This document shows, piece by piece, positions 24,583 through 60,188 of a stretch of DNA of 64,000 nucleotides. A program made the position numbers and the translations under genes. A model generated the notes under the pieces. The model worked only from the letters and a program-made list of their open reading frames with translations, was not told the DNA's origin and did not search any database. This stretch comes from Ostreococcus lucimarinus. Taxonomy: Eukaryota. Numbering within the stretch: the stretch's first letter is position 1; each line of letters opens with the position of its first letter. The stretch is from the NCBI GenBank assembly GCA_000092065.1, contig CP000581.1. One strand, 5' to 3'.

Positions 24583-24659
24583 CGAGGATGTATTTCGTTA
24601 AATAAATGTACATTCATGATATTTACAATTCACTATGGTGCGCCATCATCAACGCCTCA

Positions 24660-27600
24660 TCAACGCAACAGTTTTCTCGGCAACAAGGTCTCGTCGATGA
24701 TGTCCTTCGGCACGTCCGAAGCCTTCCCAGAAAACGCGGCGTGTATAGCGGATATTTGCGTCGCTCTGACTTTCCGAGCAAGAATGGCTTCCTCTTTAAC
24801 GTCGTGCTCGCTCGCCAACGTGATTGCCTCGGTCGTGTCGTACGAGGATCGCTTGTCCGCCGCACTGGGAGATTTGGCGGCGACTCGTTGCGCAAAGACT
24901 TCGATTTGGCCGGGGAACCTTCGATGCACGTAATCGAGTTCAGCCGTAGATTTAAACCCAAGAACGCGCGTTTCGTCGACGGGAGGGAGGGTATCGGCCT
25001 TCGATTCTTCCTTGTTTGGCCAAATCCATGTGCCAAACGTCTCGCTCGTGCCCTGATCCGCGAGGATGGAGTTCACCTTGCGCTCGCGGTTCGATTCAAT
25101 CGTCACGTGACGCTTGTGACCGGCTCCGTCGTGCATGGCGCGCACCACTCTATTCTTGAACGGTTCGAGTCGATCGATTGTGTTTTCACTTTCTGGCGGT
25201 GCGGCTACGATGCCGAATCCCTCCTTGCCTTTGATGAGCCATCTGCCCGCCGACGCCGCTTCCGTGCGGTTGACGACATACGGGAAATTTGTCTGCGAAC
25301 GGTACGATGATCGCGCGCCGAACTCAGATAACATCCTCGCAATATTGAGTCGAGTACTGATGACGCTCTGATACCGCTTTTGCGACGCCTTGAACAAATC
25401 TTCCGCGGTACCCCACAAGTAGAGCACACTGCCGTGGTGCACACGCGCATCGACGGCTCTGGGTCCATCGATCGCTTGGAGGGAGATGGACGTGGGATCA
25501 GCGCCTTCCATGAGCATGTGCTTGACAATGTCTTCACAGCCGAGCTCTCTGGCTTCGGCTCGAATGGCCGCCGTGACCGCCCACATGAGTGGATAGCTTC
25601 GCATTCCGATTGATCTCTCCGGGTCGAGTACGAAGTTGTCGTTCAAAGTTTCGTCGAGCGCCGTCTTATCGCCTTGTTCGACGTATCGCTCGCGTAGCTC
25701 TTTGTACCTCCGCATCCGATGCGCTTTGAGCTGGTTTCGCGCATTCGAATACGCTTCCGGGGCGAGCACAGAATGCAAACCAATCTTATCGACGTTGGCG
25801 CCCTTGTTGATGCAAATCTTGGCGAGCGTTATGCCGACCGCCAGTTGCTCTTGCGACTTGGCTGTGGCGGCGCCGTACAGCGCGGCAAATAGAGGCGTGA
25901 ATTCGTAAGGAACCAAACCAACGCCATAACTCTCTAGTAAAGGGTTCCTGGCGAAGGCATCGATGTTATCAGCACTGCACTTCTCTAAAAGTTTGATCGC
26001 GACGGCCAAAGTGGTCTTTTGTCGGGAAGCGTGTCGGAGTTCAAGCTCTTCCCGCGTCAATGGACGAGCCGATTCCCACTCCGCTTCGATCAGCATCTGC
26101 TCTTCCCGGTCAGCTTCGCTCGGTGCACCGATTTTATCGACGTCATCATAGAGTTTGTCCATCTCTGTTTGATCAAATTCTTCAGGGAACTCGTCATCCG
26201 AAGGCCAGTAAGCGCTCCCCTCGTTCCTTGACTCGTATGATTCACCGCCAGAGGTGAGAAGAGTAGCAGTTTCTTCTTTAACCACCGCCGCGGATATGTT
26301 TTGTCTCACCTCCATGTTCATCCTGGACGAAATCATCGTCGTCGTTTCGATTCCACTCTTAGTCACTTTGACTTGTGAATCTGACCCCGTCGCGCTTTGT
26401 CGTTTTACACCGAAATTTTGCAAGCCTTTTGGAATTATCCCATGGACCATTCGATTGAGTTCGGTCTGTCTCTTTTCTTCTTCTTCGTTGATAGCCCAAT
26501 CTAGTTCTTTAGTGTCCGCAGCTTGGAGTTGCTCTTCAAGATCATCGTCTGTTTGCGGATCCGAGTCGTACACGTTCTTATCGACCGAACTCGACCACCA
26601 CGTACTTGACCGTACTTGACCACCACGTACGGTGTTGTTTGGATTGACGAATCGCTGTCGTATCTCGTGTGCTCTTCGTTCATTCTCTTTCCGGGTTATC
26701 TCAAGAGCCCTCGTCTCGAAAGACGTATGGCCGACGACCACTGTTCGCACGAGGCCTGGAATATCTCGGCGCGCGGCGATGCTTGCTGGTCCAAATCTTG
26801 AGCCTTTTGGACGAATCACGCCCTGCACCATGCTCATTTTAGGCACAATTTTCGTGGGTACAGCTTCAGTATCAGCATTGACGTCTTCAGGCGCCTCCTC
26901 GACCGTGTACACTCGTCCATCGTCTGGACGCTCGGGACGCAACGCGTCGAGCACGGTCCGTCGCCGCAACGCACTGATATCTATGTCGTCATTTACCCCA
27001 CCGAGAATACGCGCTTCATTTCTTTTGGTAACCTTTTCGTAGAAACTCGGTTCCTCCTCGCCCTGATCATATACTCGGGTACTCTGCCTTCTGAACGCCG
27101 CGTGCTCGAGGGCATTTGAAATGGTGTTGTCGAATTTGTCTTCCTCCGTTTCCTTTGTTTTTGGTTGTTCTTGATTGGCAGCTTGATTCAAACGAAGCAA
27201 AACTTCCCCAACGTTGAGCCTTTCGAAGTTTGTTTCGTCTTCTGGTGCTGGAAGCGGCGCCGCGGCTTCGACGGCCGCTGCGATAGCCATGGCCACGAGA
27301 TTGCCTTCAATCCATGAGTGGAAATTTTTGTGCATCATCCGCCGAACCATCGCGCCAGCATCGAGAAGGCGCACGACCAACTCCACGGCTTCTTTATGGC
27401 CTTCTTTGGCCGCGGCCTCGATGGCCCAGAACAAAGGTGGATATTGGCACTCGCCTGAACGATGAGGAAGCGCTGGGAAAGGCGCGCCGAAATCAAAGTT
27501 CTTCACAGAGCCAAACATGGACGATCTGACTGATGCATCATCGTCAGTATCGCCTGACTCTTTGATTTTCTTTAGTCTTGTCACCTCTTCGAATACTTTT

Positions 27601-30416: not shown

Positions 30417-30559
30417 CGCGCGCGCCGGGCTCTGCCGCGCGTTTAGTGTTACCACGACGCGACGTAGAGTGCGCGGGTTTTAGTCCATGTTCGAGGCGCG
30501 GTGTGCGTTCGGTAATCGGACATTCGGTGTATGCGTTTTTAGTTTGAGTATTAAAAGAA
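30417..30559. promoter_or_regulatory. Putative bidirectional promoter between the ankyrin-like gene and SMC5.
   Basis: 143-bp head-to-head interval between verified ATGs at 30416 (-) and 30560 (+), relatively AT-rich (tagtttgagtattaaaagaaATG). Confidence 0.4.
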
Positions 30560-33500
30560 ATGACATCGGCGCCGCGTTTGAAAATTCGCGTCTGTCGCGC
30601 CGCGCCATCGCCCGACGCGCGCGCGACGGTGATGGCGCTCGCGCGCGAGCGTCACGGTGACTCGAGCGATGAGGACGCGTCGCCGAGCGCGAAGCGCGCC
30701 AAGGCGAGCGATGCGCGCTACGACGCGCGTGGGTACGTCCCGGGGGCGCTCATGCGGGTCACGATGCACAACTTCATGACGCATAAACACGCGACGTTCG
30801 AGCCTGGGCCGCGGTTGAACGTCGTGCTGGGACCGAATGGGACTGGGAAGAGCGCGTTCGTGTGCGCGGTGTGCGTTGGACTCGGTGGATCGCCGAAATT
30901 GCTCGGTAGAGCGGGATCGCTTGGAGATTTCGTCAAGCGCGGCGAGGAGAGCGCGTACACGGAGATCACGCTGCGGGGACGCGACGCGGCGAAACCGATC
31001 ATCATTCGACGAGATTTCAATAATCGCGCCGGTGGGGCGTCGACGTGGAAACTGAATGGGGAAACGGTGAAGCATGAACGAATTCAACAAGAGATGAAGG
31101 CGTTGCACATGCAGTTGGACAATTTGTGCTCCTTCTTGCCGCAAGACAGAGTGGTGGCGTTTTCGATGCTCAATCCGCAGGAGTTGCTGTTAGAGACGGA
31201 GAAGGCGATCGGAAACGCAGAGATGTACGAACAGCACGAAAAGTTGAAGAAGATGAAGGATGGGATTTTAGATTTAGAGCGGTCGGTGGATCAAAAGACG
31301 ATGCGCTTGGACAAGCTCGGGCGAGACAACGAAAAGTTAGAACGCGACGTCGAACGGCTTCAAACGCGTGAGAAATTACTCGACCAGGCCAAAGATATGT
31401 CTACTAAGATTCCTTGGCTACTTTATGATCGATGCGCGGTGGAGAGGCAGCAGATTATGGCGGCGTACAAGGCGGCAAAGGAAAAGGTGCAACAAGCCAA
31501 ACTCGAGCACGCAGAGAAACTTAAGGAATATCATGAGCTAGAAACGCCGTACAACGCCATGGTGGATAAGATTAAGGAAGGTCGTGACAATTACAAGGAT
31601 ACGAAGAGCACGCTGTCGAAGATGGATGCAAAATTTAACAAACTCGCGGGCAAGCACGACGCGCTGACTCGATCTCTGAAAAAGGCGCGCGACGAAGCCA
31701 ACTCTGCTAAGAAGAAGTTACAGAAGCGCGAGGATACGATCGCTCTGCTCAAGGCACAACTTAATGATGTGCCCGAAGTGCCTAGGGATATTGATCAACA
31801 ACGAGCGGAGTTGAGAACTCGCACGCAAGCGGTTCATAACGAAGTCAGAGGCACCGACGAGGCGCTTCGTAAGGCGCAACTTGAAAAGCGCCCGCTCGAT
31901 GACGAATTCCAACGTTTGAAGCGACAACACAATGCGCTCGAATCCGTGCGCGAGCAAAAGATCATGAGATTGTCGCAGCATCGCAATTTTGGTCGCATCA
32001 AGGAGGCAGATGACTGGGTACAAAAGAATAAACCGACGTTTCACGGTGAAGTGCTCGGCCCGCTCATCGCCGAGATCGAAGTGACGAATCCCACGCATGC
32101 CACGTATATCGAACAGCATCTTGGTCCGGCTGTTTTGGCGACGTATCTCGTCACCGATCGGCGCGATGAGCGTAGTGTGAACGACGCCATGAAGAACTTT
32201 CGAATCAACGTGTGGACGCCAAAGAACAACACGCAGCACGTGCCGGGCGTAGTGAGCCAAGAATTACGAGACGCGGGCGTGGTTAACACGCTGGATAATG
32301 TGTTCAAAGCTAAATCTATCGTTAAGCGGGCGCTGAGCGAAACGCACCAAATTACCAAAGTGCACGTGGGAGGCAACACGCTCGATTCGGCGACCATCGA
32401 ACGCCTATTCAGACAAAAGATATCCAGTCACATTTACTGCCCGAAAGGCGTGTACAGAGCAAACCGGTCTCGATACGACCCCAACGCGTTTTCCATGGGT
32501 CAAAACAGTATTCGACAGGGCCAGCTCTTCGGGCGCCAGACTGATGAAAACCTCACAGAGGTGAAGAACAAACTCGCCGAAGTCCAGAGAAAGCTCGTCG
32601 CTGTGAACGAAAAAGTGAGCGAACTCCAGAAGTTGCACAACGCCAAACAAGGCCAGCTCACGGAGTTACAAAGAGAGAAGAATAATTTGAATAGACTACA
32701 GCAACAACCAGAAACGAGGAAGAGGATGATTCAGACGCAGATTGCGCAACACACCGATTTGATGGCTCAAGACAAAGCGGCGGCAGACATTGCGAACATC
32801 GAGCGCAAGACTGCGGCTGAAAAGGCAAGCATATCGAAAGAGCGAGTGATGTGCGCGAGTGAGTTGTGCGACGTCGTCCTCTCCAGTCACGAGGCGTCGA
32901 TCTCGCTCACGTTGAAGGTTTTGCAGTCGGTCGAAAAGCAAGTGCAGATGACGAAACTGCAAGAGGCGCTGCAGGGTATTGAAGACAGAGTTATCAACAC
33001 AAAAGCCAAGCGTGACGATCTCAAAGCGCGCTTTCAAGCCGAAACTGAGCGCGCCGCGGCGTTGAAACGAGACGCCCTCGCCGTCACGGGCGACCTCACC
33101 GAGGAAATCAACAAGAAGTTCGAACAATGGCCGATTACTATCGAAGAGCTGGAATTCGACATCTCGCGACTTCAAGAGCAAGCGGATGCGATCTTGTGTC
33201 ACAATCCAGCGGTTTTGGATGAGTTTAATAAGCGTAAAGCCGAAATGGCGACGCTCACCAAGACGCTCGCGAGCGAAAAAGCCGAGCTTGCGGTGGAACA
33301 CGCGGCAATCACCTCGGTGAAGAATGAATGGTTGCCCAAGCTTCGAAAGATTGTGGCGAAAATCAGTGACGACTTCTCGCGGAATTTCGCCAACATCGGG
33401 TGTGCCGGACAGATTTCTCTCGCTGGTGACGGTTCCCGCGAGCACGACGGCTTTGGCGACGATTTTGCGAGCTATGCGCTGGAAATCCGAGTCAAGTTTC

Positions 33501-33862
33501 GCCCGAACGAGGACATGCACTTGCTCGACGCACACCGTCAATCAGGCGGTGAACGTTCGGTGACGACGATGCTGTACATGATCGCGTTGCAAGCGTCCAC
33601 GAGCGCCCCTTTCCGAGTCGTTGACGAGATCAATCAAGGTATGGATGCGCGAAACGAGCGCAAAGTGTTCAAGCGCATGGTCGAGGCGGCGAGCGCGCCC
33701 GGAACACCCCAATGTTTCGTCATCACACCCAAACTGCTCACGCAACTGGAGTACAGCGAAGATTGCACTGTGATGTGCATTTTCAACGGTCCGCACGTGC
33801 ACGAGATGGCGAAGAAGTGGCGCGAGATGCAAGCCGCCTTTGACTGCGTTCGAGCGCGATAG
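30560..33862 (+). CDS. SMC5: Structural maintenance of chromosomes protein 5 (SMC5).
   Basis: Walker A [24 protein letters not shown], long coiled coils, C-terminal signature [18 protein letters not shown]...[21 protein letters not shown] matching SMC5 (human QSGGEKSVSTMLYLMALQ...[21 protein letters not shown]). ATG at 30560; an alternative start is MALARE at 30632. Confidence 0.9.
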   Translation: [1100 protein letters not shown]

Positions 33863-33979
33863 CGATAGCAAAGAAACGCGAATTGTGAATTTATACAACC
33901 GACAGACACTCGCAAGCGCCTCATTCACGCACGACGGTCGTGACGGGCGCCGGTGAATCACGCGCGCACACTCGGCGCC

Positions 33980-34846
33980 ATGAGTCGCGAAGGCGATCCG
34001 AACGGCGCCTCGCGCGCGCCCCTGCGCGCGGTTTTCTTCGACTTTGACGACACACTCGCGGAAACCACCCTGGCCGATCGCGTCGCGTATCGCGAATGCG
34101 CGATTCGCATGGAGACCGTATACGGGCTGTCGAAAAAGCGACAAGATGAAGTGATCGCTGCGTACAAGCGGCGGCTCGCGGAGCGTCCCTGGAACGACGA
34201 GTTTGCGCACGTGTGGACGCACCGCGAGCGGCTGTGGGCGGAAGCGTTCGGCGACGACGACAGAGGGCTCGCAATGCGGCACGACGTGAACAGCACATTT
34301 AGGGACTGTCGCTTGGAACAGCTACGTTTAAACAGTTCTGTGTGCGGTGGCATCGAGAAGTTGCGCGCGAAGAATGTGCACGTCGTCATCATCACGAATG
34401 GCCACCACGTCGTGCAGCGAGAGAAGCTCGCCGCGTGCGGGATATACGAAGTAGTGAAGTTGGAAAACATCCTCGTCGGTGGCGAAGAAGTTCTCGCCGG
34501 TCGCGACGAGAAACCAGAGGCGTCCATCTTTCACGAGGCGTGCAAACGCGTCGACGTGGTACCAGACGAAGTTATGCACGTAGGCGACTCGTGGACCGCC
34601 GACATGGTCGGCGCCGAAAACGCTGGTCTGCGTTGGAGAGTGTGGGTGTCCCAACGTCCCGACGACGAGAAGTGCGAGAGCGAACAGGAACTGTCATCGT
34701 CGAAGCGAGCGAAAAAGGTCGACGCCGTTCCGCGCGTAGAAAACATCAAAGAATTTTTCGAGCTCCTGGACGAGTGGTTGGACGAAGACGGCACGCTGCC
34801 CGCATCCAACATTCTCTTGAAGACGCGGAGCCGTAGCGAGCGTTAG
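33980..34846 (+). CDS. HAD-superfamily hydrolase (subfamily IA-like).
   Basis: Motif I FFDFDDTL, ITNG, KPE..IF, VGDSWTADMVGAENAG. ATG at 33980; the ORF-track start at 33953 is GTG. Confidence 0.8.
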   Translation: MSREGDPNGASRAPLRAVFFDFDDTLAETTLADRVAYRECAIRMETVYGLSKKRQDEVIAAYKRRLAERPWNDEFAHVWTHRERLWAEAFGDDDRGLAMRHDVNSTFRDCRLEQLRLNSSVCGGIEKLRAKNVHVVIITNGHHVVQREKLAACGIYEVVKLENILVGGEEVLAGRDEKPEASIFHEACKRVDVVPDEVMHVGDSWTADMVGAENAGLRWRVWVSQRPDDEKCESEQELSSSKRAKKVDAVPRVENIKEFFELLDEWLDEDGTLPASNILLKTRSRSER

Positions 34847-34993
34847 CGAACGTGTTGAATAGAAGTGTAGAGGTAAATTAGAGCGAAGTGTGTTGTGTCG
34901 TTCTTTCGATTCGATCTGATTCGATTACTACAGCGCTAAAGATTAAGTTTATAGTGTACAGAGCGTATCCTACGTCGGCGACTCAACCGTCGC

Positions 34994-35311
<318 letters not shown>

Positions 35312-35440
35312 TTATGAAATACGACGAGTCGATTTGTGACGACGCGCGCGCGCGTCGAGGCGCACAAACGCGAGTTCGCGTGAGTCGTTTTTCAGATCGC
35401 GGTCGGTCGGATTTCACACTGTTTACGCATATGGAAGTGA

Positions 35441-35551
<111 letters not shown>

Positions 35552-35875
35552 GCGTTTTTCAAACGCTCCGCGGAATCAAACTCAAAATCAAAAAACCAAA
35601 AACAACAAACAATTGGTGTTCATTTCAACACCACCACTCCAAGAAAGATTCTCAACACTAAATCCAAACACTCCACTCGCGCGTCGCTTCGACGACGACC
35701 TCGTCGTCGCTCACTTTCGCGCGTGAATCGCCGTTGCAATTCGCTCGTATGCGTAAGCAGTACGACGCCTAATAATTAGGCGAATTAGGCCCTAATTCGG
35801 GACGTACGCTGACGTGGCAACGCGTACTGGCGTAATCGTTACACGGTGACGGCGACGACGGCGACGACGGCGACG

Positions 35876-36967
35876 ATGCCGTGCGGAACGAACGCGAATG
35901 ATTTAACTCGAGATAAATTCTCGAGCGTGCGAAAGAACCAAGAGACGGCGACCAGGTTCGGTGTGTTTTTGTCCACGATCGTCGTGCCGATTCTGCTCTT
36001 GTTGTACTCGGCGCTTTGGTTCACGCAATTTTACGTCGGACTCGGCCCGGATTCGCCGCCGCTGAATAAGGTGATCACCACGGAGCAGTTGCAGTACGGC
36101 CAAAAGATCTTCCCGCTGGCGCTGACGTGTAATCACCGGGATGGATGTTACTTTCGGTTGACGGGGGCGGACGCGTGCGCGTCGGGCACGGTGGCGGGCG
36201 GCGCCGGGCCGAACAATGGATTCTGCTCTGATCCGACCTTACTACCCGTCGCCAGTGGTGGAGCATCTACGCCTGCGTCGTGCGGCGTGGGTAGCCAGTG
36301 TAACACCGCCGCAGCGGCGAACGCGTGCGGCACGGCCAACGGGCCGTGCTGTCGAAAGGCCACCTGCGACACCGAACTCTCCTCCGCGCAAGGCGTGTGC
36401 GCGTTCTCGCCGCCGGGCGCCGATCCCACCGACGCGCTCACCGTAGCGTGGGCGTATAAGTCTGGATGCTCTGGTGCGTGTAATTTCGGCGTCACACTCG
36501 TCACCGATTACATCGATTCCAACGGCGATGTTGCGCAAAAGGAAGTCAAGGTGCATCGAGGCATCGCGTTGATGAATCTCATCGAGCACGACGATCCGAA
36601 AATGTCCTGGTCCAAGAGTCATCCCAATTATGCCGCCAATAAGAAAAAAACCACCATGTACGAGTGGTCGATCACAATGGTGGACGTCGAAGGTACCGTC
36701 GACGCCGTCTCAAACCTCTGCATGAACCAGATGCGCGCCGACAATCTCGTGACGTCGGGGGGAACAGTCTACGCTCGACGCGTAAAGCTCGTTCCGGCTG
36801 CAACGTACACGAAAATGTCAACGGCGTATCCGAGTCCGGGATTGGCGTACTTATCAGCCATCGGGGGTATCTCCAGCACCATCATGGCCGTCCTCGCGTA
36901 CGTCCACGCGTTCCATCTCAAGTTTTTAAATCGCGCGGCGTCGTCCGCGCCTCAAGCAGCGCCTTAA
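35876..36967 (+). CDS. Hypothetical Cys-rich membrane protein with N- and C-terminal TM segments.
   Basis: ATG at 35876 (the ORF-track start is GTG). Hydrophobic FGVFLSTIVVPILLLLYSALWF, Cys-rich Gly/Ala ectodomain, C-terminal LAYLSAIGGISSTIMAVLAYV. Confidence 0.5.
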   Translation: MPCGTNANDLTRDKFSSVRKNQETATRFGVFLSTIVVPILLLLYSALWFTQFYVGLGPDSPPLNKVITTEQLQYGQKIFPLALTCNHRDGCYFRLTGADACASGTVAGGAGPNNGFCSDPTLLPVASGGASTPASCGVGSQCNTAAAANACGTANGPCCRKATCDTELSSAQGVCAFSPPGADPTDALTVAWAYKSGCSGACNFGVTLVTDYIDSNGDVAQKEVKVHRGIALMNLIEHDDPKMSWSKSHPNYAANKKKTTMYEWSITMVDVEGTVDAVSNLCMNQMRADNLVTSGGTVYARRVKLVPAATYTKMSTAYPSPGLAYLSAIGGISSTIMAVLAYVHAFHLKFLNRAASSAPQAAP

Positions 36968-42630: not shown

Positions 42631-44382
42631 CTAGTGACGGAAGTGTCGATGACCGGTGGTGACGAGGGCGACGCCGTACTTGTTGCACACGTCCACGGCG
42701 TCTTGGTCGCGCATGGAACCGCCGGGATGGGCGATGGCTTTGATGCCGGCCTGACACGCGATCTCCACGGAATCGCCCCAAGCGAAAGGGAAGAAGGCGT
42801 CCGAGGCGAGAACGGCGCCCTGCGCCTCTTCGCCCGCCTTTTCGAGGGCGATGCGAACAGAGTTCACGCGGTTGGGCTGGCCGGAGCCCATGCCGAGAAG
42901 TCGACCGGTGGTGGCGACGGTGATGGCGTTGGACTTGACGTGCTTGACCGCGCGCCAGGCAAACTTCAAGGCTTCGAGTTGCTCTGGCGTGGGTTTGACG
43001 TCAGAGACGGCTTCAAACGTAATGTCCTCGGGCACGAGAGAGTCCGAGGCTTGCTCGAGCCAGCCACCGCCGACTTGTCGCAAGCTCTTCGTTGATCCCG
43101 TGCGCGGCTTGGTTTCCAAGATGCGCAGCGTCTTGGACTTACCCTTCAACACCTCCAAACCTTCGGGAGTGTAGGACGGAGCGATGACGATTTCATAAAA
43201 CATGCGCGTCTCGTCGTCGGTGGGAGAGCGGAACTCGCGAATTTCTCGCGCCATGTCCGCATCGACCGTACAGTTGAAGGCGACGATGCCACCGAACGCG
43301 GAGATCGGATCGGCGCGAACCGCCATGCGGTAAGCTTCGAGCAAATCGCCATTGGCGCCGCTCGCGCTCGCGATGCCGCACGGGTTGGTGTGCTTGACGA
43401 TGACGCACGTCGGATCGCTCGTCGGGTAATCGCACGCGCACCCGTACGCGGCGTCGGCATCGAGATAGTTGTTGTAACTCATTTCCTTGCCGTGATGCTG
43501 GATCGATCGCGCCACGCCCTCGCCCGTAGACTCGGCGAGCGAACCATCCGCGTATACCGCGGCGGGTTGGTGCGGGTTCTCCCCGTATCGCAGCGCCGCC
43601 GTGAGCGTCATCGGCACCGAAAGCTCGGGCGCTGGGGCACCCTCGCCGATTTGACTCCACAAGTATTCCGAAACCACGGAGTCGTACGAGGCGCAGTGTT
43701 GGAACGCCTTCCACGCCAACTCGCGCTTGAACTTCAAGTCGTCCGCCGCGCTCGGCGAACTCTTCAAATGTTCAATCAACTTTTCGTAATCGTTCGGATC
43801 GACGACGACGTACACGTGCGGGTGGTTCTTCGCCGCCGCCCGAATCATCGCCGGTCCACCGATATCGATGTTCTCCACGCACTGCGCGAAATCTCCTCCG
43901 CCCGCCACGGTTTCCCGAAACGGGTACAGGTTCACCGCCACGACGTCGATGGTATCGATCCCATGCTTCGCGATCGCCTCCATGTGCGACGCGTCCTCAC
44001 GTTTCGCCAGTATACCTCCGTGCACGCCCGGATGCAGCGTCTTCACGCGTCCATCGAGCATCTCAGGGAATCCCGTCACCGCGTCCACGCTCGTCACCGC
44101 CGTCCCGCTCGCCTCGATCGCCTTCGCGCTCCCGCCCGTGGACACGATTTCGTACCCCAATCCCGCCAGCCCTCTCGCGAGTTCGTTCATCTGGCTCTTA
44201 TCGCTCACGCTCACCAGCGCTCGCTTCGCGCTCGCGCGCGGGGCCACCGCGCGCGCGCGCCGCGTCGCCGTCACCGCCGCCGCGCGCCGTCCCATCGCGC
44301 GCGTTCGCGTCTCGCTCGAGCCCATCGACGCGAACCGCGCGCCGGGCGTCACCGCGAGCGCCACGGTGGTCGTCGTCGCCAT
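42631..44382 (-). CDS. purH: Bifunctional AICAR transformylase / IMP cyclohydrolase (PurH/ATIC) with a plastid-type presequence.
   Basis: ALVSVSDKS...GLGYEIVSTGGSAKAIEASG...GRVKTLHPGVHGGILA...NLYPF...DIGGPAMIRAAAKNH... across the full length. First ATG at 44382 (MATTTTVALAVT...); the ORF-track start is GTG. Confidence 0.93.
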   Translation of the reverse strand: MATTTTVALAVTPGARFASMGSSETRTRAMGRRAAAVTATRRARAVAPRASAKRALVSVSDKSQMNELARGLAGLGYEIVSTGGSAKAIEASGTAVTSVDAVTGFPEMLDGRVKTLHPGVHGGILAKREDASHMEAIAKHGIDTIDVVAVNLYPFRETVAGGGDFAQCVENIDIGGPAMIRAAAKNHPHVYVVVDPNDYEKLIEHLKSSPSAADDLKFKRELAWKAFQHCASYDSVVSEYLWSQIGEGAPAPELSVPMTLTAALRYGENPHQPAAVYADGSLAESTGEGVARSIQHHGKEMSYNNYLDADAAYGCACDYPTSDPTCVIVKHTNPCGIASASGANGDLLEAYRMAVRADPISAFGGIVAFNCTVDADMAREIREFRSPTDDETRMFYEIVIAPSYTPEGLEVLKGKSKTLRILETKPRTGSTKSLRQVGGGWLEQASDSLVPEDITFEAVSDVKPTPEQLEALKFAWRAVKHVKSNAITVATTGRLLGMGSGQPNRVNSVRIALEKAGEEAQGAVLASDAFFPFAWGDSVEIACQAGIKAIAHPGGSMRDQDAVDVCNKYGVALVTTGHRHFRH

Positions 44383-44720
44383 CGTCCTCGTCCTCGTCGC
44401 GCCGCGCGTCCGTCGCGCGCCGTCGTCCGCCGTCGCGCGTCGTCGCCGGCGCGCGCGCCGGCGGTTTTCAAACACAATCGGACATCCGGGTATGCGTAGC
44501 AGTGTATACCCTAACGACGCGTTTATTCGCGCGCGATGACGCGCGATCACGTACGATGGGACGCTCGAACGCCATCGATGGCGCACCGATCGCGCGTCGC
44601 GCGTCGACCCGTTCGCGATTCGCGCGCGTCGCGCGACGCGCGCCGCGGAACGACGCGCGCGCGATTCGCGAGGCCGGGATCGGAGACGAACGCGAGACGA
44701 TCTCGACGCCGGCGCGCGCG

Positions 44721-45686
44721 ATGACGCGCGCCGATGGACGTCGGCGACGCGCGCGAGGCGGGCGCGCGAGGCGGGCGCGGGCGACGCGCGTCCTGGGAAC
44801 GTGCGCGGTCGCCGCCGCGCGTCTCGCGCGCGCGGTGCCGGGTGCAGTGGCGTTTAGCAATTTGACGGCACTGCAGACGCGGGTGGACGATTGCGCGTCG
44901 ACGGACCCGACGTTCGCGACGTGCGTGGACAACGGCGTCGCAATCGGTTCTTGGGACGTCAGCCTGGTGACCTCAATGAGACAACTGTTCAAGGATAAGC
45001 AGTCGTTCAACGTCGATATCTCGGCGTGGAACGTGGGTCAGGTGACGGATATGTTTAACATGTTTTCGAACGCGATCTCGTTCAATCAAAACATCGGGGG
45101 TTGGGACGTGTCCTCGGTGACGCAGATGTATCAAATGTTTCACAACGCCACAGTATTCAACCAAGACATCAGCGGTTGGACCGTCGCCCAGGTGCAGGAC
45201 ATGGCATACATGTTCTCCGAAGCCAAGGCGTTCGACAAGGACATCACCAGTTGGAGTAATTATACTGGATCCGGTTCCCCCGTTTACGTGCAGATGTTTG
45301 TTGGCGCCACGGCGTGGAACGCGGCGTGGGGTCGACCCGGCGGCTTGCAGAACTTCGACGGACCAGCGAGCGTGTGGGCGGTCGACGGCACGTACACTCC
45401 ACCGCCACCACCACCGAGCCCACCACCGCCGAGTCCGCCGCCACCACCGAGCCCACCGCCGCCGAGCCCGCCGCCGGCGGACGTGCCCACGTACGGCATA
45501 GGCATCATGATGGGCGGCGGTCTGCTGTGCGTATTTTTCGGCTACAAGTACTACCGACGACGTCAAAAAGCGCGCGCGCCCGCCGTGAGCATCAAAGATC
45601 GCATGGATGAGGACGAAGAAGCCATGACTAAGTCGACGGTGGAATTCTTCGACAAGTTGGACAGCGGCCGCATCAAGTCGCCGTAA
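44721..45686 (+). CDS. DUF285 (Mycoplasma-type 26-residue repeat, BspA-like) surface protein with a Pro-rich stalk, TM helix and short cytoplasmic tail.
   Basis: Repeats WDVSLVTSMRQLF / ISAWNVGQVTDMFNMF / IGGWDVSSVTQMYQMF / ISGWTVAQVQDMAYMF / ITSW. Then PPPPPPSPPPPSPPPPPSPPPPSPPP, TM YGIGIMMGGGLLCVFFGY and a basic tail. Signal-like N-terminus from ATG 44721. Confidence 0.75.
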   Translation: MTRADGRRRRARGGRARRARATRVLGTCAVAAARLARAVPGAVAFSNLTALQTRVDDCASTDPTFATCVDNGVAIGSWDVSLVTSMRQLFKDKQSFNVDISAWNVGQVTDMFNMFSNAISFNQNIGGWDVSSVTQMYQMFHNATVFNQDISGWTVAQVQDMAYMFSEAKAFDKDITSWSNYTGSGSPVYVQMFVGATAWNAAWGRPGGLQNFDGPASVWAVDGTYTPPPPPPSPPPPSPPPPPSPPPPSPPPADVPTYGIGIMMGGGLLCVFFGYKYYRRRQKARAPAVSIKDRMDEDEEAMTKSTVEFFDKLDSGRIKSP

Positions 45687-46450
45687 ACCTCGCCTTCGTC
45701 GCCGTCCTCCGCGACTTGACGTCGCGCGTTCGCTCGTGTAAATTATTGTACCCTTCATTGACACGCGTTCGCACGCGTACCATCGGTGCGCGCGCACAGA
45801 CCGCGCGGCTACGCGTCGCCGCGCCTCCGGCGTCGCCGCGAGACCGACCGACCGACCGCGACGGCGTCGAAAAATATCTTCGAAATCGCAACCAATCGAA
45901 TCGAGCCGCCGCGCGTGCCGCGTCAGCCGATTTTTACCACACATGGGCGAATCTTCGCTCGAATACGACAAAGGCCCCCCCCGACGCGCGTGCGGATAGG
46001 GCGTCGGTCGCGGCGCGCGCGCGGCACTTCGCGCCGACGCTTCGCGGCGTCCGTCGCGGCGCGCATGCTCCCCGCGGGCGCGCTCGCGCGCTCGATCGAA
46101 CGCGCGGATACGGACACGCGTCGATCGGCGAGCGATGCGCGCGGCGTCGACGCGAACGGCGACGGCGACGGCGACGACGCGCGCGAGGCGGTCGCCCGCG
46201 GCGGCGCGCGCGCGCGCGCGAACGGCGCGACGACGCCGCGCGCGATGGACACCGAGGTGCGTCGAGCGCGCGATCCGATGAGTATAATTACGACGCGCGA
46301 ATTTACGCGCCGCACGGGCCGCGACGGCGCGCGAGGCGCGCGAGGCGCGCGCGATTTCGCGTGCGTCTCCGCGACGGACGTTCGGCGGCGCGCCGACGCT
46401 TCGATGCGAGTGGGCGCGCGTCACGCGCGCGGCGATGGAGACGCGCGACG

Positions 46451-47552: not shown

Positions 47553-48857
47553 CTAGTTGACGCCCGCTGCGACGCTCTCATCTTCGGCTCTCAAAGTATC
47601 GACGCCGCGTGCGAGTGCGGCGCCGAACTCGAGCGTTCGAGGACGTGCAGCCGGCTTTGGCGGCGCCTCTCTGTTCGCCGCGCACGCGAGAGAAAAAGCG
47701 CGATACGCATCGAGTAATCTTTGCGATGGCTTTGCCTGCGGAATGATCGGACGTTTGATCGCTCGGACGTACGTTTTCGCGAGTACCAACTCTAACTGTG
47801 CTTCCATTCTTTGCTTTCGCGCGACGGTTAACTTTCGAAGCGCGAGATCTTCCCTGGACGGCGTCTTTTCCTCCACCGGCGCGATGGCGCGCTTCTTCGT
47901 CGCGGCGGGGGTCTGGAAAGCCTTCACGACCGTCTTGGTGTCTTTTGCCACCGATTGCGCTGGCGGTGTCTTTCTCTTCTTCGCCGCCGGCGCGACCTCT
48001 GTCGGCGTCGCTTCCTTCTTCGCCGCGGCGCCGTTCGAGTCCCTGAGCACTCCGGCTCCGCTTCGCTTGACGCGTGCACCGATCTCGCGCTGCTCGATCG
48101 CTTTCTTTCTAGCGATGGGTTTGTTTTCCTTTTCAGCGACGTCGACGACCTCGATCGCCGTCGTCTGCACGGAGTTCGATCCGCGCGTCGTCCTCGCGCT
48201 CGTCCGCGTCGGTTTCTTCTCCGTCGGCGTCGCCGCGACGTCGTCCAAAGTCTTGGACAAAACGATCGGCGTCACCGCCGCCGCCTTGGAAGAACGTTCT
48301 CGACTTTTCGTCCCCGTCGTTTTCGTCACCGTCGTCGCGCTCGCTCGTTTCGTCTCCTTCTCCCGCGTCGTCTTCTCCCGCGGCTTCGTTCGCGCGTTCG
48401 CCCCCCCCTCGCCCTCTCTCGCGTCGTCCCCCCGCAGCGCCAGCGTGCGATCGAACGTCTTCATCTCAATTTTTTGCCCGCTCCCGATCGCGTTCGCCAC
48501 GCGCGCCGCGACGCCGTCCGCGACGACCTCTGAGAAATCCCGCAGCGCCGACGGCCCCGGCGCGTGTCGCCCCACGAGCGGGTCCCACGCCCACGGCGCC
48601 AGACTCGCCAGTTCCTTCTCCACCCTCGACCGTCGCTTCCCGCGCGTCGTCGACGTCGAGCTCGAATCCATCGTCGCCCGCGTCGTCGTCGTCGCGCGCG
48701 GCGCCGGCGTTCGCGGCTCCGCGTCGCGCGTCCCGCGTCGCGCGTCGCCCGTCGTCGCTCGCCCCTTCGCGTCGCGCGTCGTCGCGAGCGCGGGCGTCAT
48801 CGCGGAGCTCTCCGCCATCGCGCGCGCGAGCTGCTGTCGCTCCGTCAGTCTCGACAT
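47553..48857 (-). CDS. Basic, Lys/Ala/Thr-rich low-complexity protein (possible chromatin or microtubule-associated factor).
   Basis: ATG at 48857 (the ORF-track start is TTG). Long K/T/A-rich sequence with a conserved-looking C-terminus EDLALRKLTVARKQRMEAQLELVLAKTYVRAIKRPIIP. Confidence 0.4.
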   Translation of the reverse strand: MSRLTERQQLARAMAESSAMTPALATTRDAKGRATTGDARRGTRDAEPRTPAPRATTTTRATMDSSSTSTTRGKRRSRVEKELASLAPWAWDPLVGRHAPGPSALRDFSEVVADGVAARVANAIGSGQKIEMKTFDRTLALRGDDAREGEGGANARTKPREKTTREKETKRASATTVTKTTGTKSRERSSKAAAVTPIVLSKTLDDVAATPTEKKPTRTSARTTRGSNSVQTTAIEVVDVAEKENKPIARKKAIEQREIGARVKRSGAGVLRDSNGAAAKKEATPTEVAPAAKKRKTPPAQSVAKDTKTVVKAFQTPAATKKRAIAPVEEKTPSREDLALRKLTVARKQRMEAQLELVLAKTYVRAIKRPIIPQAKPSQRLLDAYRAFSLACAANREAPPKPAARPRTLEFGAALARGVDTLRAEDESVAAGVN

Positions 48858-58532: not shown

Positions 58533-60188
58533 ATGGCGACTTCATCGCCTCGTACGCGGGTGATTGTTTGGTTTCGGAACGACTTGAGGTTGTTGGACAA
58601 CGCCGTCGTCGCTCGAGCGGCGGCTCTGCGCGGACAATCGGACGCCGCTGAGGTCGTCCCGGTGTACGTGTTCGATGAGACGTTTTTTAAGACATCCAAG
58701 CGCGGTCTCGCGCGCTTCGGTGCAGGGCGTGGGAAGTTTACGATTGAGTGCGTGGACGACTTGAAGCGCGCGCTTCGCGGCGTCGGCAGCGACTTGTTGG
58801 TGCGTTGCGGCAAGACGGAGGATGTCATCACCGAGCTCACGCTCACGGGTGCGAACGACAAAACGATCGTGCTCACGCAAACAGAGGTGACGAGCGAGGA
58901 GACTGATATGGATAGGGCGGTAGAGAGGGCGTCGAAGGAGCGAGCTCGAAGCGGCGGCGCGTCGGCGTCGATGGAGCGTCTGTGGGGGTCGACACTTTAC
59001 CACGCCGACGACCTCCCGTACGACTTCGCCGGAGGTCTACACGATTTACCAGATGTGTTCACGCCATTTCGGAACAAGGTAGAGTCAAAGTGCTCAGTGC
59101 GAGCGGTAGTGCCCGCGCCGACGGCGAACGCTCTGGGAAGCGTACCGGCGTCCGTGGCGGGGTTGGATTGGATGCCTGAACCGAAGGATTTGCCTTTCGC
59201 GTCGGCCGAAATCGCCCCGGCGTGCGAAAAATGGCTCAAAGATGGCGCAGACGAGCGCTCTGTGCTCGAATTCAAGGGTGGCGAATCCCAAGCCTTGGCT
59301 CGCGTCAAGTATTATTTGTGGGATAGCGATTTGCTCGCGACGTACTTTGAAACTCGCAACGGGATGCTGGGCGGCGACTACAGCACCAAGCTCGCACCGT
59401 GGCTCGCCTTAGGATGTGTGTCGCCGCGCTACGTCGTGAGCGAGATTCGACGCTACGAGAGCGCGCGCGTTGAGAACAAGAGCACGTATTGGGTAATATT
59501 TGAGTTGATATGGAGAGACTTCTTCAAGTTCTTCGCGCTGAAACACGGGAACAAAATCTTCCATCTCGACGGTACGGCTAACAGGACGGCATCTTGGAAG
59601 AGTGATGAGAAGATCTTGAAGGCATGGAAGACAGGCACGACCGGATACCCACTCATCGACGCCAACATGCGCGAACTCGCGGCGACTGGTTTCATGTCGA
59701 ATCGAGGGCGACAAAACGTCGCCTCGTGGCTCGCCCTCGACGCCGGCGTCGACTGGAGACACGGTGCCGATTGGTTCGAGCACCACTTATTGGATTACGA
59801 CACCGCTTCTAACTGGGGGAACTGGTGCGCCGCCGCCGGTATGACGGGCGGTCGCATCAACCGCTTCAACATCGCCAAGCAAACCAAGGACTACGATCCC
59901 TCTGGCGACTACGTCAAGCGTTGGATCCCGGAACTCCGCGAGATCCCCGCGGCGTACATCACCGAGCCCAACCAAGCCCCTCGCGAGCTTCGCGATCGAA
60001 TCAGTCTCGATTACCCGAACAAGCTCAATCTCCCGAGGCGTGACTTCACGGAAATGGGGTCTCCGCCCGGGCCGAAGCGCGGCGGCGGTCGCGCCGCCGG
60101 CGGCGGTCGAGGCGGTCGAGGCGGGCGTTCGAAATCTCGCGGCCCCAAGGCCCACGCCGTGAGCGTGTACGACCACGTGTACGGTTAA
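58533..60188 (+). CDS. CRYD: Cryptochrome DASH (photolyase/cryptochrome family).
   Basis: VIVWFRNDLRLLDNAVV...FRNKVESKC...YYLWDSDLLATYFETRNGMLGGDYSTKLAPWLALGCVSPRYV...WRDFFKF...GTTGYPLIDANMRELAATGFMSNRGRQNVASWL...WGNWCAAAGMTGGRINRFNIAKQTKDYDPSGDYVKRWIPEL. ATG at 58533; the ORF-track start is TTG. Confidence 0.9.
   Translation: MATSSPRTRVIVWFRNDLRLLDNAVVARAAALRGQSDAAEVVPVYVFDETFFKTSKRGLARFGAGRGKFTIECVDDLKRALRGVGSDLLVRCGKTEDVITELTLTGANDKTIVLTQTEVTSEETDMDRAVERASKERARSGGASASMERLWGSTLYHADDLPYDFAGGLHDLPDVFTPFRNKVESKCSVRAVVPAPTANALGSVPASVAGLDWMPEPKDLPFASAEIAPACEKWLKDGADERSVLEFKGGESQALARVKYYLWDSDLLATYFETRNGMLGGDYSTKLAPWLALGCVSPRYVVSEIRRYESARVENKSTYWVIFELIWRDFFKFFALKHGNKIFHLDGTANRTASWKSDEKILKAWKTGTTGYPLIDANMRELAATGFMSNRGRQNVASWLALDAGVDWRHGADWFEHHLLDYDTASNWGNWCAAAGMTGGRINRFNIAKQTKDYDPSGDYVKRWIPELREIPAAYITEPNQAPRELRDRISLDYPNKLNLPRRDFTEMGSPPGPKRGGGRAAGGGRGGRGGRSKSRGPKAHAVSVYDHVYG

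What the first reader, a model, noticed from the sequence alone, without database searches (positions are those of the whole stretch)
44721..45686. DUF285 (Mycoplasma-type repeat) protein on a Pro-rich stalk with a TM anchor
There are five clear DUF285 repeats (I..WDVS.VT.M..MF....FNQDIS.W). This repeat family is best known from Mycoplasma and Listeria surface lipoproteins and is patchily distributed in eukaryotic algae. Here it is built into a eukaryotic type-I membrane architecture: signal-like N-terminus, extensin-like (SPPPP)n stalk, a single TM helix and a short basic tail. It is a candidate horizontally acquired cell-surface adhesion or recognition module, relevant to virus or bacteria interactions in picoplankton.
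Basis: partly seen in the sequence, partly recalled or inferred. Interest (0 to 1): 0.55.

Follow-up and report, generated by a model that had tools for sequence, protein, structure and literature searches.

The report
Algal surface protein with DUF285 repeats
This is an intact gene of a marine green picoalga for a small membrane-anchored surface protein that holds a leucine-rich-repeat-like DUF285 (PARCEL) head on a proline-rich stalk; proteins of this kind were described in these algae in 2010, so it is an ordinary member, though its outer face evolves unusually fast.

Summary

The kind is already published: Röske et al. 2010 reported PARCEL/DUF285 ORFs in Micromonas and Ostreococcus, membrane topologies for PARCEL ORFs generally, and an HGT hypothesis.

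This copy is not a recent transfer. It is single-copy in the window, sits between PurH and a Gemin6-like gene in every relative recovered, and has host-like GC3.

New here:
- The ectodomain has dN/dS about 1.0-1.1, against 0.01-0.33 for four annotated neighbours, yet none of 33 superfamily core positions varies.
- The stalk is encoded by a 33-nt tandem repeat, and its length varies (9, 16 or 27 aa) among orthologues.
- A giant-virus MAG contig carries a gene with the same full architecture as a GC-rich island.

Most likely function: a surface recognition or adhesion protein with an unknown partner. New member of a known kind; modest interest.

The parts
44721..45686 (+). Complete CDS (321 aa plus stop) of the DUF285/PARCEL type-I membrane protein
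   Evidence: ORF listing and sequence. Pfam PF03382 E=6.5e-39. The ORF is intact and colinear in 14 orthologues.
44721..44849 (+). N-terminal signal-like segment (aa 1-43): Arg-rich n-region, h-region VLGTCAVAAA, possible AVA|FS cleavage site
   Evidence: Hydropathy. The model has low pLDDT here. Distant orthologues carry clearer hydrophobic signals. Cleavage was not testable.
44850..44942 (+). N-terminal cap (aa 44-74) with an invariant Cys pair (C58, C68) and an indel-prone loop before repeat 1
   Evidence: Invariant columns in alignment A2. Predicted helix 48-61 with pLDDT above 90. Loop indels among orthologues: CVD-NG, SNS, SLASNS, SNSPP.
44943..45242 (+). Four canonical 25-residue DUF285/PARCEL repeats (aa 75-99, 100-124, 125-149, 150-174)
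   Evidence: Repeat register. Pfam and TIGR02167 hits. pLDDT 94-98, with one beta-bridge per repeat at register position 11. LRR-fold matches.
45243..45395 (+). Degenerate fifth repeat plus C-terminal cap (aa 175-225: ...MFVGATAWNAAWGRPG...DGPASVW), carrying the conserved sequon N180-Y-T
   Evidence: Invariant positions include M192, F193, A196, A198, W199, D213, G214, P215, W219. The N-x-T sequon is conserved in 7 of 8 family members. Similar 'ATAW...PRPxWG' caps occur in bacterial homologues P0058 and P0092.
45396..45476 (+). Extensin-like (S/T)P3-6 stalk (aa 226-252)
   Evidence: Sequence. Low pLDDT in the model. Length varies among orthologues: 9, 16 or 27 aa.
45402..45475 (.). 33-nt DNA tandem repeat (2.2 copies, 92% matches) that encodes the stalk; the probable source of its length variation
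   Evidence: Tandem Repeats Finder and the repeat finder. Orthologue deletions are 33 nt (L006, L020) and 54 nt (L005).
45492..45554 (+). Single transmembrane segment (about aa 258-278, YGIGIMMGGGLLCVFFGYKYY)
   Evidence: Hydropathy maximum KD 1.65. AlphaFold2 helix 260-285. RRR follows directly, in line with the positive-inside rule.
45555..45683 (+). Cytoplasmic tail (aa 279-321): RRRQKAR, then acidic cluster DEDEE and EFF..LDSGR
   Evidence: Composition of 11 K/R and 9 D/E. The motifs are conserved between clades A and B but not in distant orthologues.
44383..44720 (.). Intergenic region shared with the divergently transcribed PurH gene (42631-44382, minus strand); presumed bidirectional promoter and 5'UTR
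   Evidence: Gene positions. This head-to-head arrangement is conserved in L001-L006 and L009. Promoter function is inferred, not tested.

Best explanation
The gene encodes a small type-I plasma-membrane glycoprotein of a Mamiellophyceae-like green picoalga. The alga is probably Micromonas, but that assignment is inference.

Proposed layout and mechanism:
- After signal-peptide-directed entry into the ER, the ectodomain folds into a short LRR-like right-handed solenoid. It consists of a Cys-bridged N-cap, four DUF285/PARCEL repeats and a degenerate fifth repeat with a C-cap.
- The head is held away from the naked cell membrane on an (S/T)P3-6 stalk, which is probably hydroxylated and O-arabinosylated and adopts a polyproline-II conformation.
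- One TM helix and a 43-aa tail without a catalytic domain anchor the protein.
- It most likely acts as a binding (recognition or adhesion) module whose ligand contacts the solvent-exposed residues of the repeat face.
- Those residues change quickly between close relatives while the hydrophobic scaffold stays fixed. The stalk length is reset by slippage in a 33-nt tandem repeat.

Shown: domain identity, architecture, predicted fold, synteny, the rate pattern and the stalk repeat. Inferred: membrane topology, glycosylation, the binding function and the partner (virus, bacterium or conspecific cell).
For: Identity and architecture
- DUF285: PF03382 132.8 bits, TIGR02167 53.4 bits.
- Repeats, TM, tail, sequons and Cys positions.
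- AlphaFold2: pLDDT 93-98 over aa 41-170, one beta-bridge per repeat, a TM helix and a low-confidence stalk.

Fold
- The Foldseek PDB hits are weak (E above 0.1) but are all LRR ectodomains.
- The best viral structural matches are 'BspA family LRR surface proteins' of Aureococcus virus and Megaviridae, E 1e-14 to 1e-10.

Real, constrained gene
- The ORF is intact in 14 orthologues at 75-100% aa identity and in three distant family members with the same architecture, two of them positional orthologues.
- Synteny with PurH and/or the Gemin6-like gene is conserved.
- 48 of 182 ectodomain positions vary, but 0 of the 33 positions nearly invariant across the superfamily do (binomial p=6.8e-5).

Fast ectodomain
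- Window versus L006: ectodomain dN/dS 1.03-1.09 at dS 0.13.
- Neighbours: ECH 0.012, Gemin6-like 0.07, PurH 0.19, WD40 0.33.
- Pooled Fisher test: odds ratio about 6, p about 1e-8.
- Within and between clades: Ps=2, Pn=23, Ds=11, Dn=48.
- Variable sites sit mainly at repeat register positions 2, 3, 5, 7, 8, 10 and 11, around the predicted beta-strand (18 of 27 in the first half of the repeat, p=0.04).

Secretory-pathway hints
- Invariant Cys pair C58/C68.
- The N180-x-T sequon is conserved in 7 of 8 family members.

Stalk
- Encoded by a 33-nt tandem repeat.
- 9, 16 or 27 aa among orthologues.
Against: - No experimental or expression evidence could be obtained. All matching contigs look genomic.
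- The N-terminal signal of this copy is weak and Arg-interrupted, and no signal-peptide predictor was available.
- Ectodomain dN/dS is not significantly above 1 (binomial p 0.07 for polymorphism, 0.37 for divergence). Relaxed constraint on surface residues would explain the rate as well as diversifying selection would.
- Some multi-residue differences (WNVGQ to WDVSS) may be single gene-conversion events that inflate the nonsynonymous counts.
- One clade-B contig carries a frameshifted copy, P0019.
- No ligand is known for any DUF285 protein. A recent Tara Oceans diatom preprint still calls the family 'enigmatic' (10.1101/2024.06.08.598090).
- The fold assignment rests on a predicted model, and no PDB relative is detectable by sequence.
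Confidence: 0.6

Rival explanations
1. It is a specific receptor, or a receptor decoy, in the arms race with prasinoviruses or other giant viruses. The virus binds the variable repeat face. Host alleles escape by changing surface residues and stalk length.
For: - The ectodomain evolves fast while its scaffold is conserved.
- Stalk length varies through a tandem repeat.
- DUF285 genes are abundant in giant viruses: 422 IMG/VR stretches, and 38 DUF285 proteins in Aureococcus virus (PMC10720644).
- Giant-virus MAG contig L045 carries a gene with the same signal, N-cap, repeats, C-cap, SPPPP stalk and TM layout. It forms a GC-rich island: 0.54-0.58 against 0.35-0.40 in the flanks.
- A 2017 review names no prasinovirus receptor (PMC5371798).
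Against: - There is no direct link between this gene and any virus.
- No viral contig carries a close copy; the best identity is 58% or less, over the repeats only.
- Röske et al. found no PARCEL in the one O. tauri virus genome they examined.
- Known Ostreococcus resistance maps to glycosyltransferase-rich regions of an outlier chromosome, not to core loci like this one (PMC5371798).
- The excess of nonsynonymous change is not significantly above neutral.
Confidence: 0.12
2. It is a gamete or cell-cell recognition adhesin, working like the hydroxyproline-rich sexual agglutinins of Chlamydomonas (a globular head on a polyproline shaft). Rapid ectodomain change would then reflect mate-recognition divergence between cryptic species.
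For: - The head-on-(S/T)Pn-stalk design.
- Many fixed nonsynonymous differences between two closely related clades (Dn=48, Ds=11).
- It is single-copy and stably syntenic, as expected for a species-level recognition gene.
- The comparison with Chlamydomonas agglutinins is from general knowledge, not tested here.
Against: - The gene is not in a low-GC or outlier region where Mamiellales mating-type loci are reported (general knowledge). Its neighbours are housekeeping genes.
- No homology to agglutinins was found.
- Sex has not been observed directly in these algae.
Confidence: 0.08
3. It is a structural or physico-chemical glycocalyx component, for example ice-binding or surface-hydration, as speculated for diatom DUF285 solenoids. 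On this view it is not a specific receptor, and its surface residues simply drift.
For: - The Tara Oceans diatom preprint reports that DUF285 transcripts are abundant at high latitudes and notes that the solenoid resembles antifreeze proteins.
- dN/dS near 1 at non-core positions fits weak constraint on surface identity.
- The repeat has a conserved S/T ladder (WDVSxVTxM).
Against: - Four repeats give only a very small flat face.
- Position 10 is T in three repeats and Q in the fourth.
- Ice-binding proteins are usually secreted or abundant, not single-copy membrane-anchored proteins.
Confidence: 0.08
4. It is a dispensable, decaying remnant of an old transfer with no current function.
For: - Ectodomain dN/dS is about 1.
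- One frameshifted copy (P0019) sits on a 40-kb clade-B contig.
- The signal peptide is weak.
Against: - The ORF is intact in 14 orthologues, and the same architecture is kept in three distant family members (P0012, P0016, P0017) across PurH dS of about 0.57.
- 0 of 33 core positions vary (p=6.8e-5).
- Cys pair, sequon, caps and TM are all conserved.
- Against the more distant orthologues, ectodomain dN/dS falls to 0.27-0.55.
Confidence: 0.05
5. The Arg/Ala-rich N-terminus is an organelle transit peptide, so the protein is not at the cell surface.
For: - The N-terminus (MTRADGRRRRARGGRARRARATR...) resembles the Arg/Ala-rich transit peptide of the neighbouring plastid-type PurH.
Against: - Distant orthologues have short, classical hydrophobic signals.
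- The Cys pair and N-x-T sequon are conserved.
- The protein has an extensin-type stalk and a C-terminal TM followed by RRR.
- These are features of the secretory pathway.
Confidence: 0.04

Closest known systems
PARCEL / DUF285 (PF03382, TIGR02167) ORFs of Micromonas and Ostreococcus described by Röske et al. 2010 (PMC2996958)
   Same: - The same 25-residue repeat family.
- The same group of organisms: the paper counts 17 ORFs in Micromonas RCC299 and 8 in CCMP1545.
- The paper documents membrane-protein topologies, including bitopic ones, for PARCEL ORFs in a selection of taxa.
- It proposes an exogenous origin.
   Different: - The dyad-symmetric coding DNA it describes is not evident here.
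- In the parts of the paper read here (term search and section 7), no N-cap/C-cap, (S/T)Pn stalk plus TM layout, synteny or rate pattern was found.
- I could not establish whether this exact gene is among their ORFs.
Mycoplasma surface lipoproteins LppQ/LppC and the Mbov_0838 family (NF045896)
   Same: - They share the repeat (95.5 bits to NF045896 over aa 75-180).
- They are surface-exposed and sequence-variable, and their expression is shown by proteomics.
   Different: - They are anchored by an N-terminal lipobox, not a C-terminal TM.
- They have many more repeats and no Pro-rich stalk.
- The window protein scores far below the family cut-off (95.5 against 500), so it is not a member of that lipoprotein family.
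DUF285 / 'BspA family LRR surface proteins' of giant viruses (Aureococcus anophagefferens virus, Megaviridae MAGs)
   Same: - They are the best structural matches in the viral library (E down to 1.7e-14, 30-43% identity).
- Contig L045 has the same complete architecture, including stalk and TM.
   Different: - They are viral, often multi-copy, and sit in repetitive genome regions (PMC10720644).
- None is a close copy of this gene; identity is 58% or less.
Plant LRR receptor-like proteins (RLPs) and LRR-extensins (LRX); platelet GPIb-alpha
   Same: - They have a comparable design: an LRR head, a TM anchor and a short non-catalytic tail in RLPs and GPIb-alpha, with an extended O-glycosylated stalk in GPIb-alpha; and an LRR joined to an extensin domain in LRX.
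   Different: - There is no sequence-level LRR match.
- The repeat consensus differs (I..WDVS.VT.M..MF..A..FNQD).
- LRX proteins lack a TM. GPIb-alpha has a mucin stalk, not an extensin stalk.
- This is analogy of design, not family membership.
Bacterial marine DUF285 proteins with T9SS sorting domains (for example P0042 and many PF18962-bearing hits)
   Same: - The repeat region is 50-60% identical over about 100 aa.
- A similar N-cap (L..AV.....YG.I..WDVS) and C-cap (ATAW...P.WG) are present.
   Different: - They have more repeats.
- They are exported by a bacterial signal peptide plus a Por/T9SS C-terminal domain.
- They have no Cys pair in the N-cap, no Pro-rich stalk and no TM.

Membership tests
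DUF285 / PARCEL repeat family (PF03382, TIGR02167) | Score above the curated Pfam gathering threshold for PF03382 | tested here: met
   132.8 bits against a cut-off of 25, E=6.5e-39, aa 65-178 matching profile positions 7-120 of 120.
DUF285 / PARCEL repeat family (PF03382, TIGR02167) | Repeated matches to the 26-residue repeat model TIGR02167, above its cut-off | tested here: met
   53.4 bits against a cut-off of 30, with 3 stretches.
DUF285 / PARCEL repeat family (PF03382, TIGR02167) | Tandem units of 25 residues with conserved hydrophobic positions (I..W.V..V..M..MF..A..FN) | tested here: met
   Units start at aa 75, 100, 125 and 150 (exact 25-residue spacing), plus a degenerate unit at 175. 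The conserved positions coincide with the columns nearly invariant across 61 homologues.
DUF285 / PARCEL repeat family (PF03382, TIGR02167) | Palindromic (dyad-symmetric) coding DNA, the 'P' of PARCEL (Röske et al. 2010) | tested here: not met
   The repeat finder on 44700-45700 gives only 12-15-nt, 80-83% complementary arms that touch the repeat-coding part (I19, I24, I25), which is chance level. TRF finds no 75-nt period. This is a descriptive feature of many members, not part of the HMM definition.
Mbov_0838 family PARCEL surface lipoproteins (NF045896) | Whole-protein score above the curated cut-off; N-terminal lipobox | tested here: not met
   95.5 bits against a cut-off of 500, with only the repeat part matching. 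No lipobox is visible in the N-terminus.
Leucine-rich-repeat (LRR) solenoid fold | Right-handed solenoid with one short beta-strand per repeat; structural similarity to solved LRR proteins | tested here: met
   [not shown]
Leucine-rich-repeat (LRR) solenoid fold | Sequence match to a Pfam LRR model or to a solved LRR protein | tested here: not met
   No LRR family appears in the Pfam scan at E up to 1. phmmer against PDB finds no relative of the head.
Extensin-type hydroxyproline-rich glycoprotein module | Repeated Ser-Pro(3-5) motifs | tested here: met
   TP6-SP4-SP5-SP4-SP3 at aa 226-252.
Extensin-type hydroxyproline-rich glycoprotein module | Tyr cross-linking motifs (YXY/VYK) within the repeat block | tested here: not met
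   There is no Tyr inside aa 226-252, so the sequence shows no such motifs.
Extensin-type hydroxyproline-rich glycoprotein module | Prolyl hydroxylation and Hyp-O-arabinosylation | not testable with these tools
   Needs glycoproteomics or monosaccharide analysis.
Type-I (bitopic, N-out) membrane protein | Cleavable N-terminal signal peptide | tested here: inconclusive
   The h-region VLGTCAVAAA has KD 2.08 and lies next to two Arg, with a possible AVA|FS site. Orthologues are clearer (KD 3.0-3.1). No SignalP-type predictor was available.
Type-I (bitopic, N-out) membrane protein | Single C-proximal TM helix with positive charges on the cytoplasmic side | tested here: met
   Hydropathy peak at aa 255-273 (KD 1.65). 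AlphaFold2 helix 260-285, followed by RRRQKAR. This is conserved in the orthologues.
Plant LRR-RLP / LRX families | Plant-specific 24-residue LRR consensus; for LRX, no TM and a Cys-rich hinge before the extensin domain | tested here: not met
   The repeat has a different consensus and period (25 aa) and gives no Pfam LRR hit. A TM is present. The resemblance is in design only.

The most novel reading that the evidence does not exclude
This single-copy, syntenic DUF285-stalk-TM protein is the host-side determinant of a recognition arms race. It would be, for example, the attachment receptor or a decoy for prasinoviruses or other giant viruses, or else a species-level cell-cell recognition protein. 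On this reading, diversifying selection acts on the LRR-like beta-face, stalk length is tuned by a 33-nt minisatellite, and giant viruses capture the same complete architecture (as in L045) to interfere with it.
Probability: 0.12. Interest if true: 0.75.

Novelty: new member of a known kind. Interest (0 to 1): 0.3.

Why it matters
DUF285 is one of the most abundant domains of unknown function in marine plankton:
- 94,333 cluster representatives matched the family profile.
- It is the only DUF among the 100 most-transcribed Pfam families of diatoms in the Tara Oceans data.
- Giant viruses carry dozens of copies.
- No ligand or function is known for it in any alga.

This gene is a minimal representative with four repeats. 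It is single-copy in the window, stably placed in the genome, and belongs to a lineage where genetic tools exist (Ostreococcus and Micromonas relatives). Its rate pattern suggests which face of the repeat may matter. That makes it a reasonable handle for a first functional test of algal DUF285 proteins. It does not change what is known about the family's existence, distribution or likely surface role.

Tried and rejected
- **Exact-sequence look-up.** Neither the 321-aa nor the 376-aa product is in the collection, although Logan contig L001 is 100% identical over 6,383 bp.
- **Naming the organism.** The PurH homology search returned only unnamed metagenome proteins at 77-100% identity. The nearest named taxa are other green algae at about 70%. 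Mamiellophyceae/Micromonas therefore stays an inference from GC content, gene density, the Bathycoccus DUF285 hit and the literature.
- **PDB by sequence.** No relative of the head was found; the few weak hits cover only the Pro-rich stalk and TM region.
- **Exhaustive profile search.** The output was swamped by giant multi-repeat proteins. It gave family size only, with no insight into architecture.
- **Test for positive selection.** A McDonald-Kreitman style count gives Pn/Ps = 23/2 and Dn/Ds = 48/11. Neither is significantly above the neutral N/S ratio (p=0.07 and 0.37). The PurH control in those short loci covers mostly the fast-evolving transit peptide, so it is a weak control. I therefore claim only an elevated rate, not proven diversifying selection.
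- **Paralogues.** tblastn found no second DUF285 gene in the window, and a regex scan found no second Pro-rich stalk.
- **RNA families.** An Rfam scan of the window found nothing.
- **Recent HGT.** Rejected for this copy on synteny and GC3.
- **The longer 376-aa gene model** from ATG 44556. Rejected as less likely because clade B lacks any upstream in-frame ATG.
- **Suspect database proteins.** P0122 (515 aa) is probably a chimeric assembly through the stalk repeat. P0004, P0121 and P0124 end in what look like translated sequencing-adapter sequence. None of these was used.
Full report
**1. What is in the sequence**

The + strand carries an open frame ending at 45686. A further in-frame ATG lies at 44556.

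In a relative that is 88% identical at the DNA level (L006), the homologous MTRDDG methionine is the only in-frame ATG after the upstream stop. This supports 44721 as the start.

The protein scores 132.8 bits on Pfam DUF285 (PF03382; cut-off 25; E=6.5e-39). It scores 53.4 bits on NCBIfam TIGR02167, now named 'PARCEL repeat-containing surface protein', with three separate stretches.

Four canonical 25-residue units start at aa 75, 100, 125 and 150. A fifth unit at aa 175 is degenerate and merges into a conserved C-terminal cap, MFxGATAWNAAWGRPG...DGPxSxW.

In front of the repeats is an N-terminal cap with an invariant Cys pair, C58 and C68.

After the head come three parts:
- The stalk TPPPPPPSPPPPSPPPPPSPPPPSPPP (aa 226-252). 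It is the only such run in the whole window.
- A hydrophobic segment with its hydropathy peak at aa 255-273 (KD 1.65).
- A 43-aa tail that starts RRRQKAR and then has an acidic cluster. It has 11 K/R and 9 D/E, so it is not simply basic.

The N-terminus has a very Arg-rich n-region and a modest h-region, VLGTCAVAAA (KD 2.08). Positional orthologues in more distant relatives have plain signal peptides, VAIAIAIAIA and VVVSGVVVAV.

**2. Fold**

No solved structure is related by sequence.

An AlphaFold2 model built on 61 homologues has these features:
- Block-mean pLDDT is 93-98 over aa 41-170.
- There is one beta-bridge per repeat, at register position 11.
- The stalk has low confidence.
- The TM region is a helix (aa 260-285).

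In the viral structure library, the best matches are 'BspA family LRR surface proteins' of Aureococcus anophagefferens virus and of environmental Megaviridae, with E from 1.7e-14 to about 1e-10 and 30-43% identity.

So the head is a short LRR-like solenoid. This agrees with a recent Tara Oceans preprint. It disagrees with the amphipathic-helix guess of the original PARCEL paper.

**3. Genomic context and relatives**

The window is GC-rich (about 0.51-0.72) and densely packed. Its genes are eukaryotic housekeeping genes: PurH with a transit peptide, an F-box/RCC1 protein, a Gemin6-like protein, a WD40 protein, enoyl-CoA hydratase, SMC and Nup107.

PurH's nearest named relatives are green algae at about 70% identity. 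Closer hits are unnamed marine metagenome proteins. A Mamiellophyceae (probably Micromonas) origin is inferred, not demonstrated.

The DUF285 gene lies head-to-head with PurH, with a Gemin6-like gene downstream. The same arrangement is found in several relatives:
- Contigs that are 100-98.9% identical to the window (L001-L005).
- An 88%-identical relative (L006).
- L009 (protein P0017), which shares PurH upstream.
- L007 (protein P0012), which shares the Gemin6-like gene downstream.

The DUF285 genes of L009 and L007 are only about 68-69% identical to the window gene at the DNA level and about 50% at the protein level.

All of these proteins keep the same architecture. There is no paralogue in the window. 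The gene's GC3 (0.76) lies within the range of its neighbours, 0.66-0.80.

The gene is therefore an old, vertically inherited resident of this lineage. Whether its ancestor came from bacteria cannot be decided from this copy.

**4. How it evolves**

A metagenome scan gave eleven more orthologues. With L005 and L006 they form two clades:
- Clade A: the window plus ten loci, 91-100% aa identity.
- Clade B: three loci, about 78% aa identity.

*Rates, window against L006.* The ectodomain has dN/dS 1.03-1.09 at dS 0.13. The neighbouring genes have similar dS (0.11-0.17) but much lower dN/dS: 0.012 (ECH), 0.07 (Gemin6-like), 0.19 (PurH) and 0.33 (WD40). The pooled contrast is strong: odds ratio about 6, p about 1e-8.

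*Counts over all 14 sequences.* Ps=2, Pn=23, Ds=11, Dn=48 in the ectodomain. This is not significantly above the neutral expectation (p=0.07 and 0.37). Positive selection is therefore not proven.

*Evidence against decay:*
- 48 of 182 ectodomain positions vary. None of the 33 positions that are nearly invariant across 61 superfamily members does (p=6.8e-5).
- The caps, the Cys pair, the N180-x-T sequon and the TM are all conserved.
- Against the distant orthologues, dN/dS falls to 0.27-0.55.

*Where the variation lies.* Within the repeats, variable sites sit mainly at register positions 2, 3, 5, 7, 8, 10 and 11, around the predicted strand. In LRR proteins this is usually the ligand-binding face. 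That step is an inference from general LRR knowledge.

*Caveat.* Some differences, such as WNVGQ to WDVSS, may be single gene-conversion events between repeats.

*The stalk.* It is encoded by a 33-nt tandem repeat of 2.2 copies (45402-45475). Its length differs among orthologues: 27 aa here, in most clade-A loci and in L019; 9 aa in L005; and 16 aa in L006 and L020. The deletions are 54 nt and 33 nt.

**5. Most likely mechanism**

The most likely reading is a type-I surface glycoprotein with these properties:
- It displays a small LRR-like binding head on a rigid, probably O-glycosylated polyproline stalk.
- It has no catalytic cytoplasmic domain.
- In design it works like plant LRR receptor-like proteins, LRR-extensins or platelet GPIb-alpha.
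- It is a member of none of those families. There is no sequence-level LRR match, the repeat consensus differs, and a TM is present where LRX has none.

The partner is unknown. Candidates are viruses, bacteria or conspecific cells.

Rivals are listed separately: a specific virus receptor or decoy, a mating adhesin, a structural or ice-related glycocalyx protein, a decaying gene, and organelle targeting. The last two are largely contradicted by the conservation pattern.

**6. Comparison with what is known**

- Röske et al. 2010 (PMC2996958) defined PARCEL = DUF285 = TIGR02167. They counted 17 such ORFs in Micromonas RCC299 and 8 in CCMP1545. They described membrane topologies, including bitopic ones, for PARCEL ORFs in selected taxa, and argued for horizontal spread.
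- Later work notes DUF285 as an LRR-related solenoid that is highly transcribed in diatoms.
- DUF285 is also abundant in Aureococcus virus and reported to be in flux between that virus and its host.
- The family is very large: 94,333 cluster representatives matched the profile at E up to 1e-3.

The finding is therefore a new member of a known kind. Three details were not found in the papers read here:
- The conserved cap, stalk and TM sub-architecture with a syntenic single-copy gene.
- The rate pattern.
- The stalk minisatellite.

**7. Verdict**

Novelty is low and interest modest (0.3). The main value is as a tractable entry point to the unknown function of algal DUF285 proteins.

Noticed in passing
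L045:2776-4146 (+), IMG/VR contig IMGVR_UViG_GVMAG-S-ERX556119-27_000001: A giant-virus MAG contig encodes a 456-aa protein with the same complete layout as the window protein. It has a hydrophobic N-terminus, a Cys-containing N-cap, about six DUF285 repeats (Pfam E=3.3e-57), a C-cap (MFNGATAWLGAY..DGPLSAW), a long SPPPP-type stalk, a TM and a basic tail. The gene is a GC-rich island (0.54-0.58) in an AT-rich contig (0.35-0.40), which suggests capture from an algal host. Its neighbours include a TET-associated glycosyltransferase-like gene and a DUF6445 gene.
   Followed up: partly
window 47556-48800 (-): A 415-aa ORF just downstream of the Gemin6-like gene has no Pfam hit. It evolves fast between the window and L006 (dN/dS 0.74, 85.5% aa identity). 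It could be a rapidly evolving gene or a spurious antisense ORF in GC-rich DNA.
   Followed up: partly
window 24000-36000: A lower-GC stretch (0.51-0.58, against 0.60-0.72 elsewhere in the window). It holds a 1,931-aa ORF (24660-30455, minus strand) with only a weak ankyrin hit, and an 1,100-aa SMC-like ORF (30560-33862, plus strand).
   Followed up: no
window 60055-60148 (+): The only tRNA found is tRNA-Ala(CGC). At 94 nt it is long for a tRNA, so it probably contains an intron.
   Followed up: no
proteins P0004, P0121, P0124, P0122, P0019 (database relatives of the window gene): Several database proteins look like assembly artefacts. P0004 and P0121 end in LSLIHI and P0124 in CLLYTSPS, which look like translated sequencing-adapter sequence (recalled, not checked). 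P0122 (515 aa) appears to be a chimera joined through the Pro-rich stalk repeat. P0019 is a frameshifted clade-B copy on a 40-kb contig; this could be an assembly error or a real null allele.
   Followed up: partly
window 44925-44945 (aa 69-75, loop between C68 and repeat 1) and 44820-44870 (aa 34-50): These are indel hot spots among near-identical environmental orthologues. The loop reads CVD-NG, ANG, SNS, SLASNS or SNSPP, and there is a 3-aa indel (ARA) in the signal region of L004. The most variable parts of the protein are thus the signal/N-cap junction and the loop that leads into the first repeat.
   Followed up: partly
window 43731-44720 (+ frame of the DUF285 gene): The DUF285 reading frame stays open for about 330 codons upstream of the ATG, running antisense through the PurH gene. 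The same is seen in the clade-A orthologous loci. This looks like a GC-rich, stop-poor antisense frame rather than coding sequence. It explains why prokaryote-style gene callers extend the protein to 358-376 aa.
   Followed up: partly
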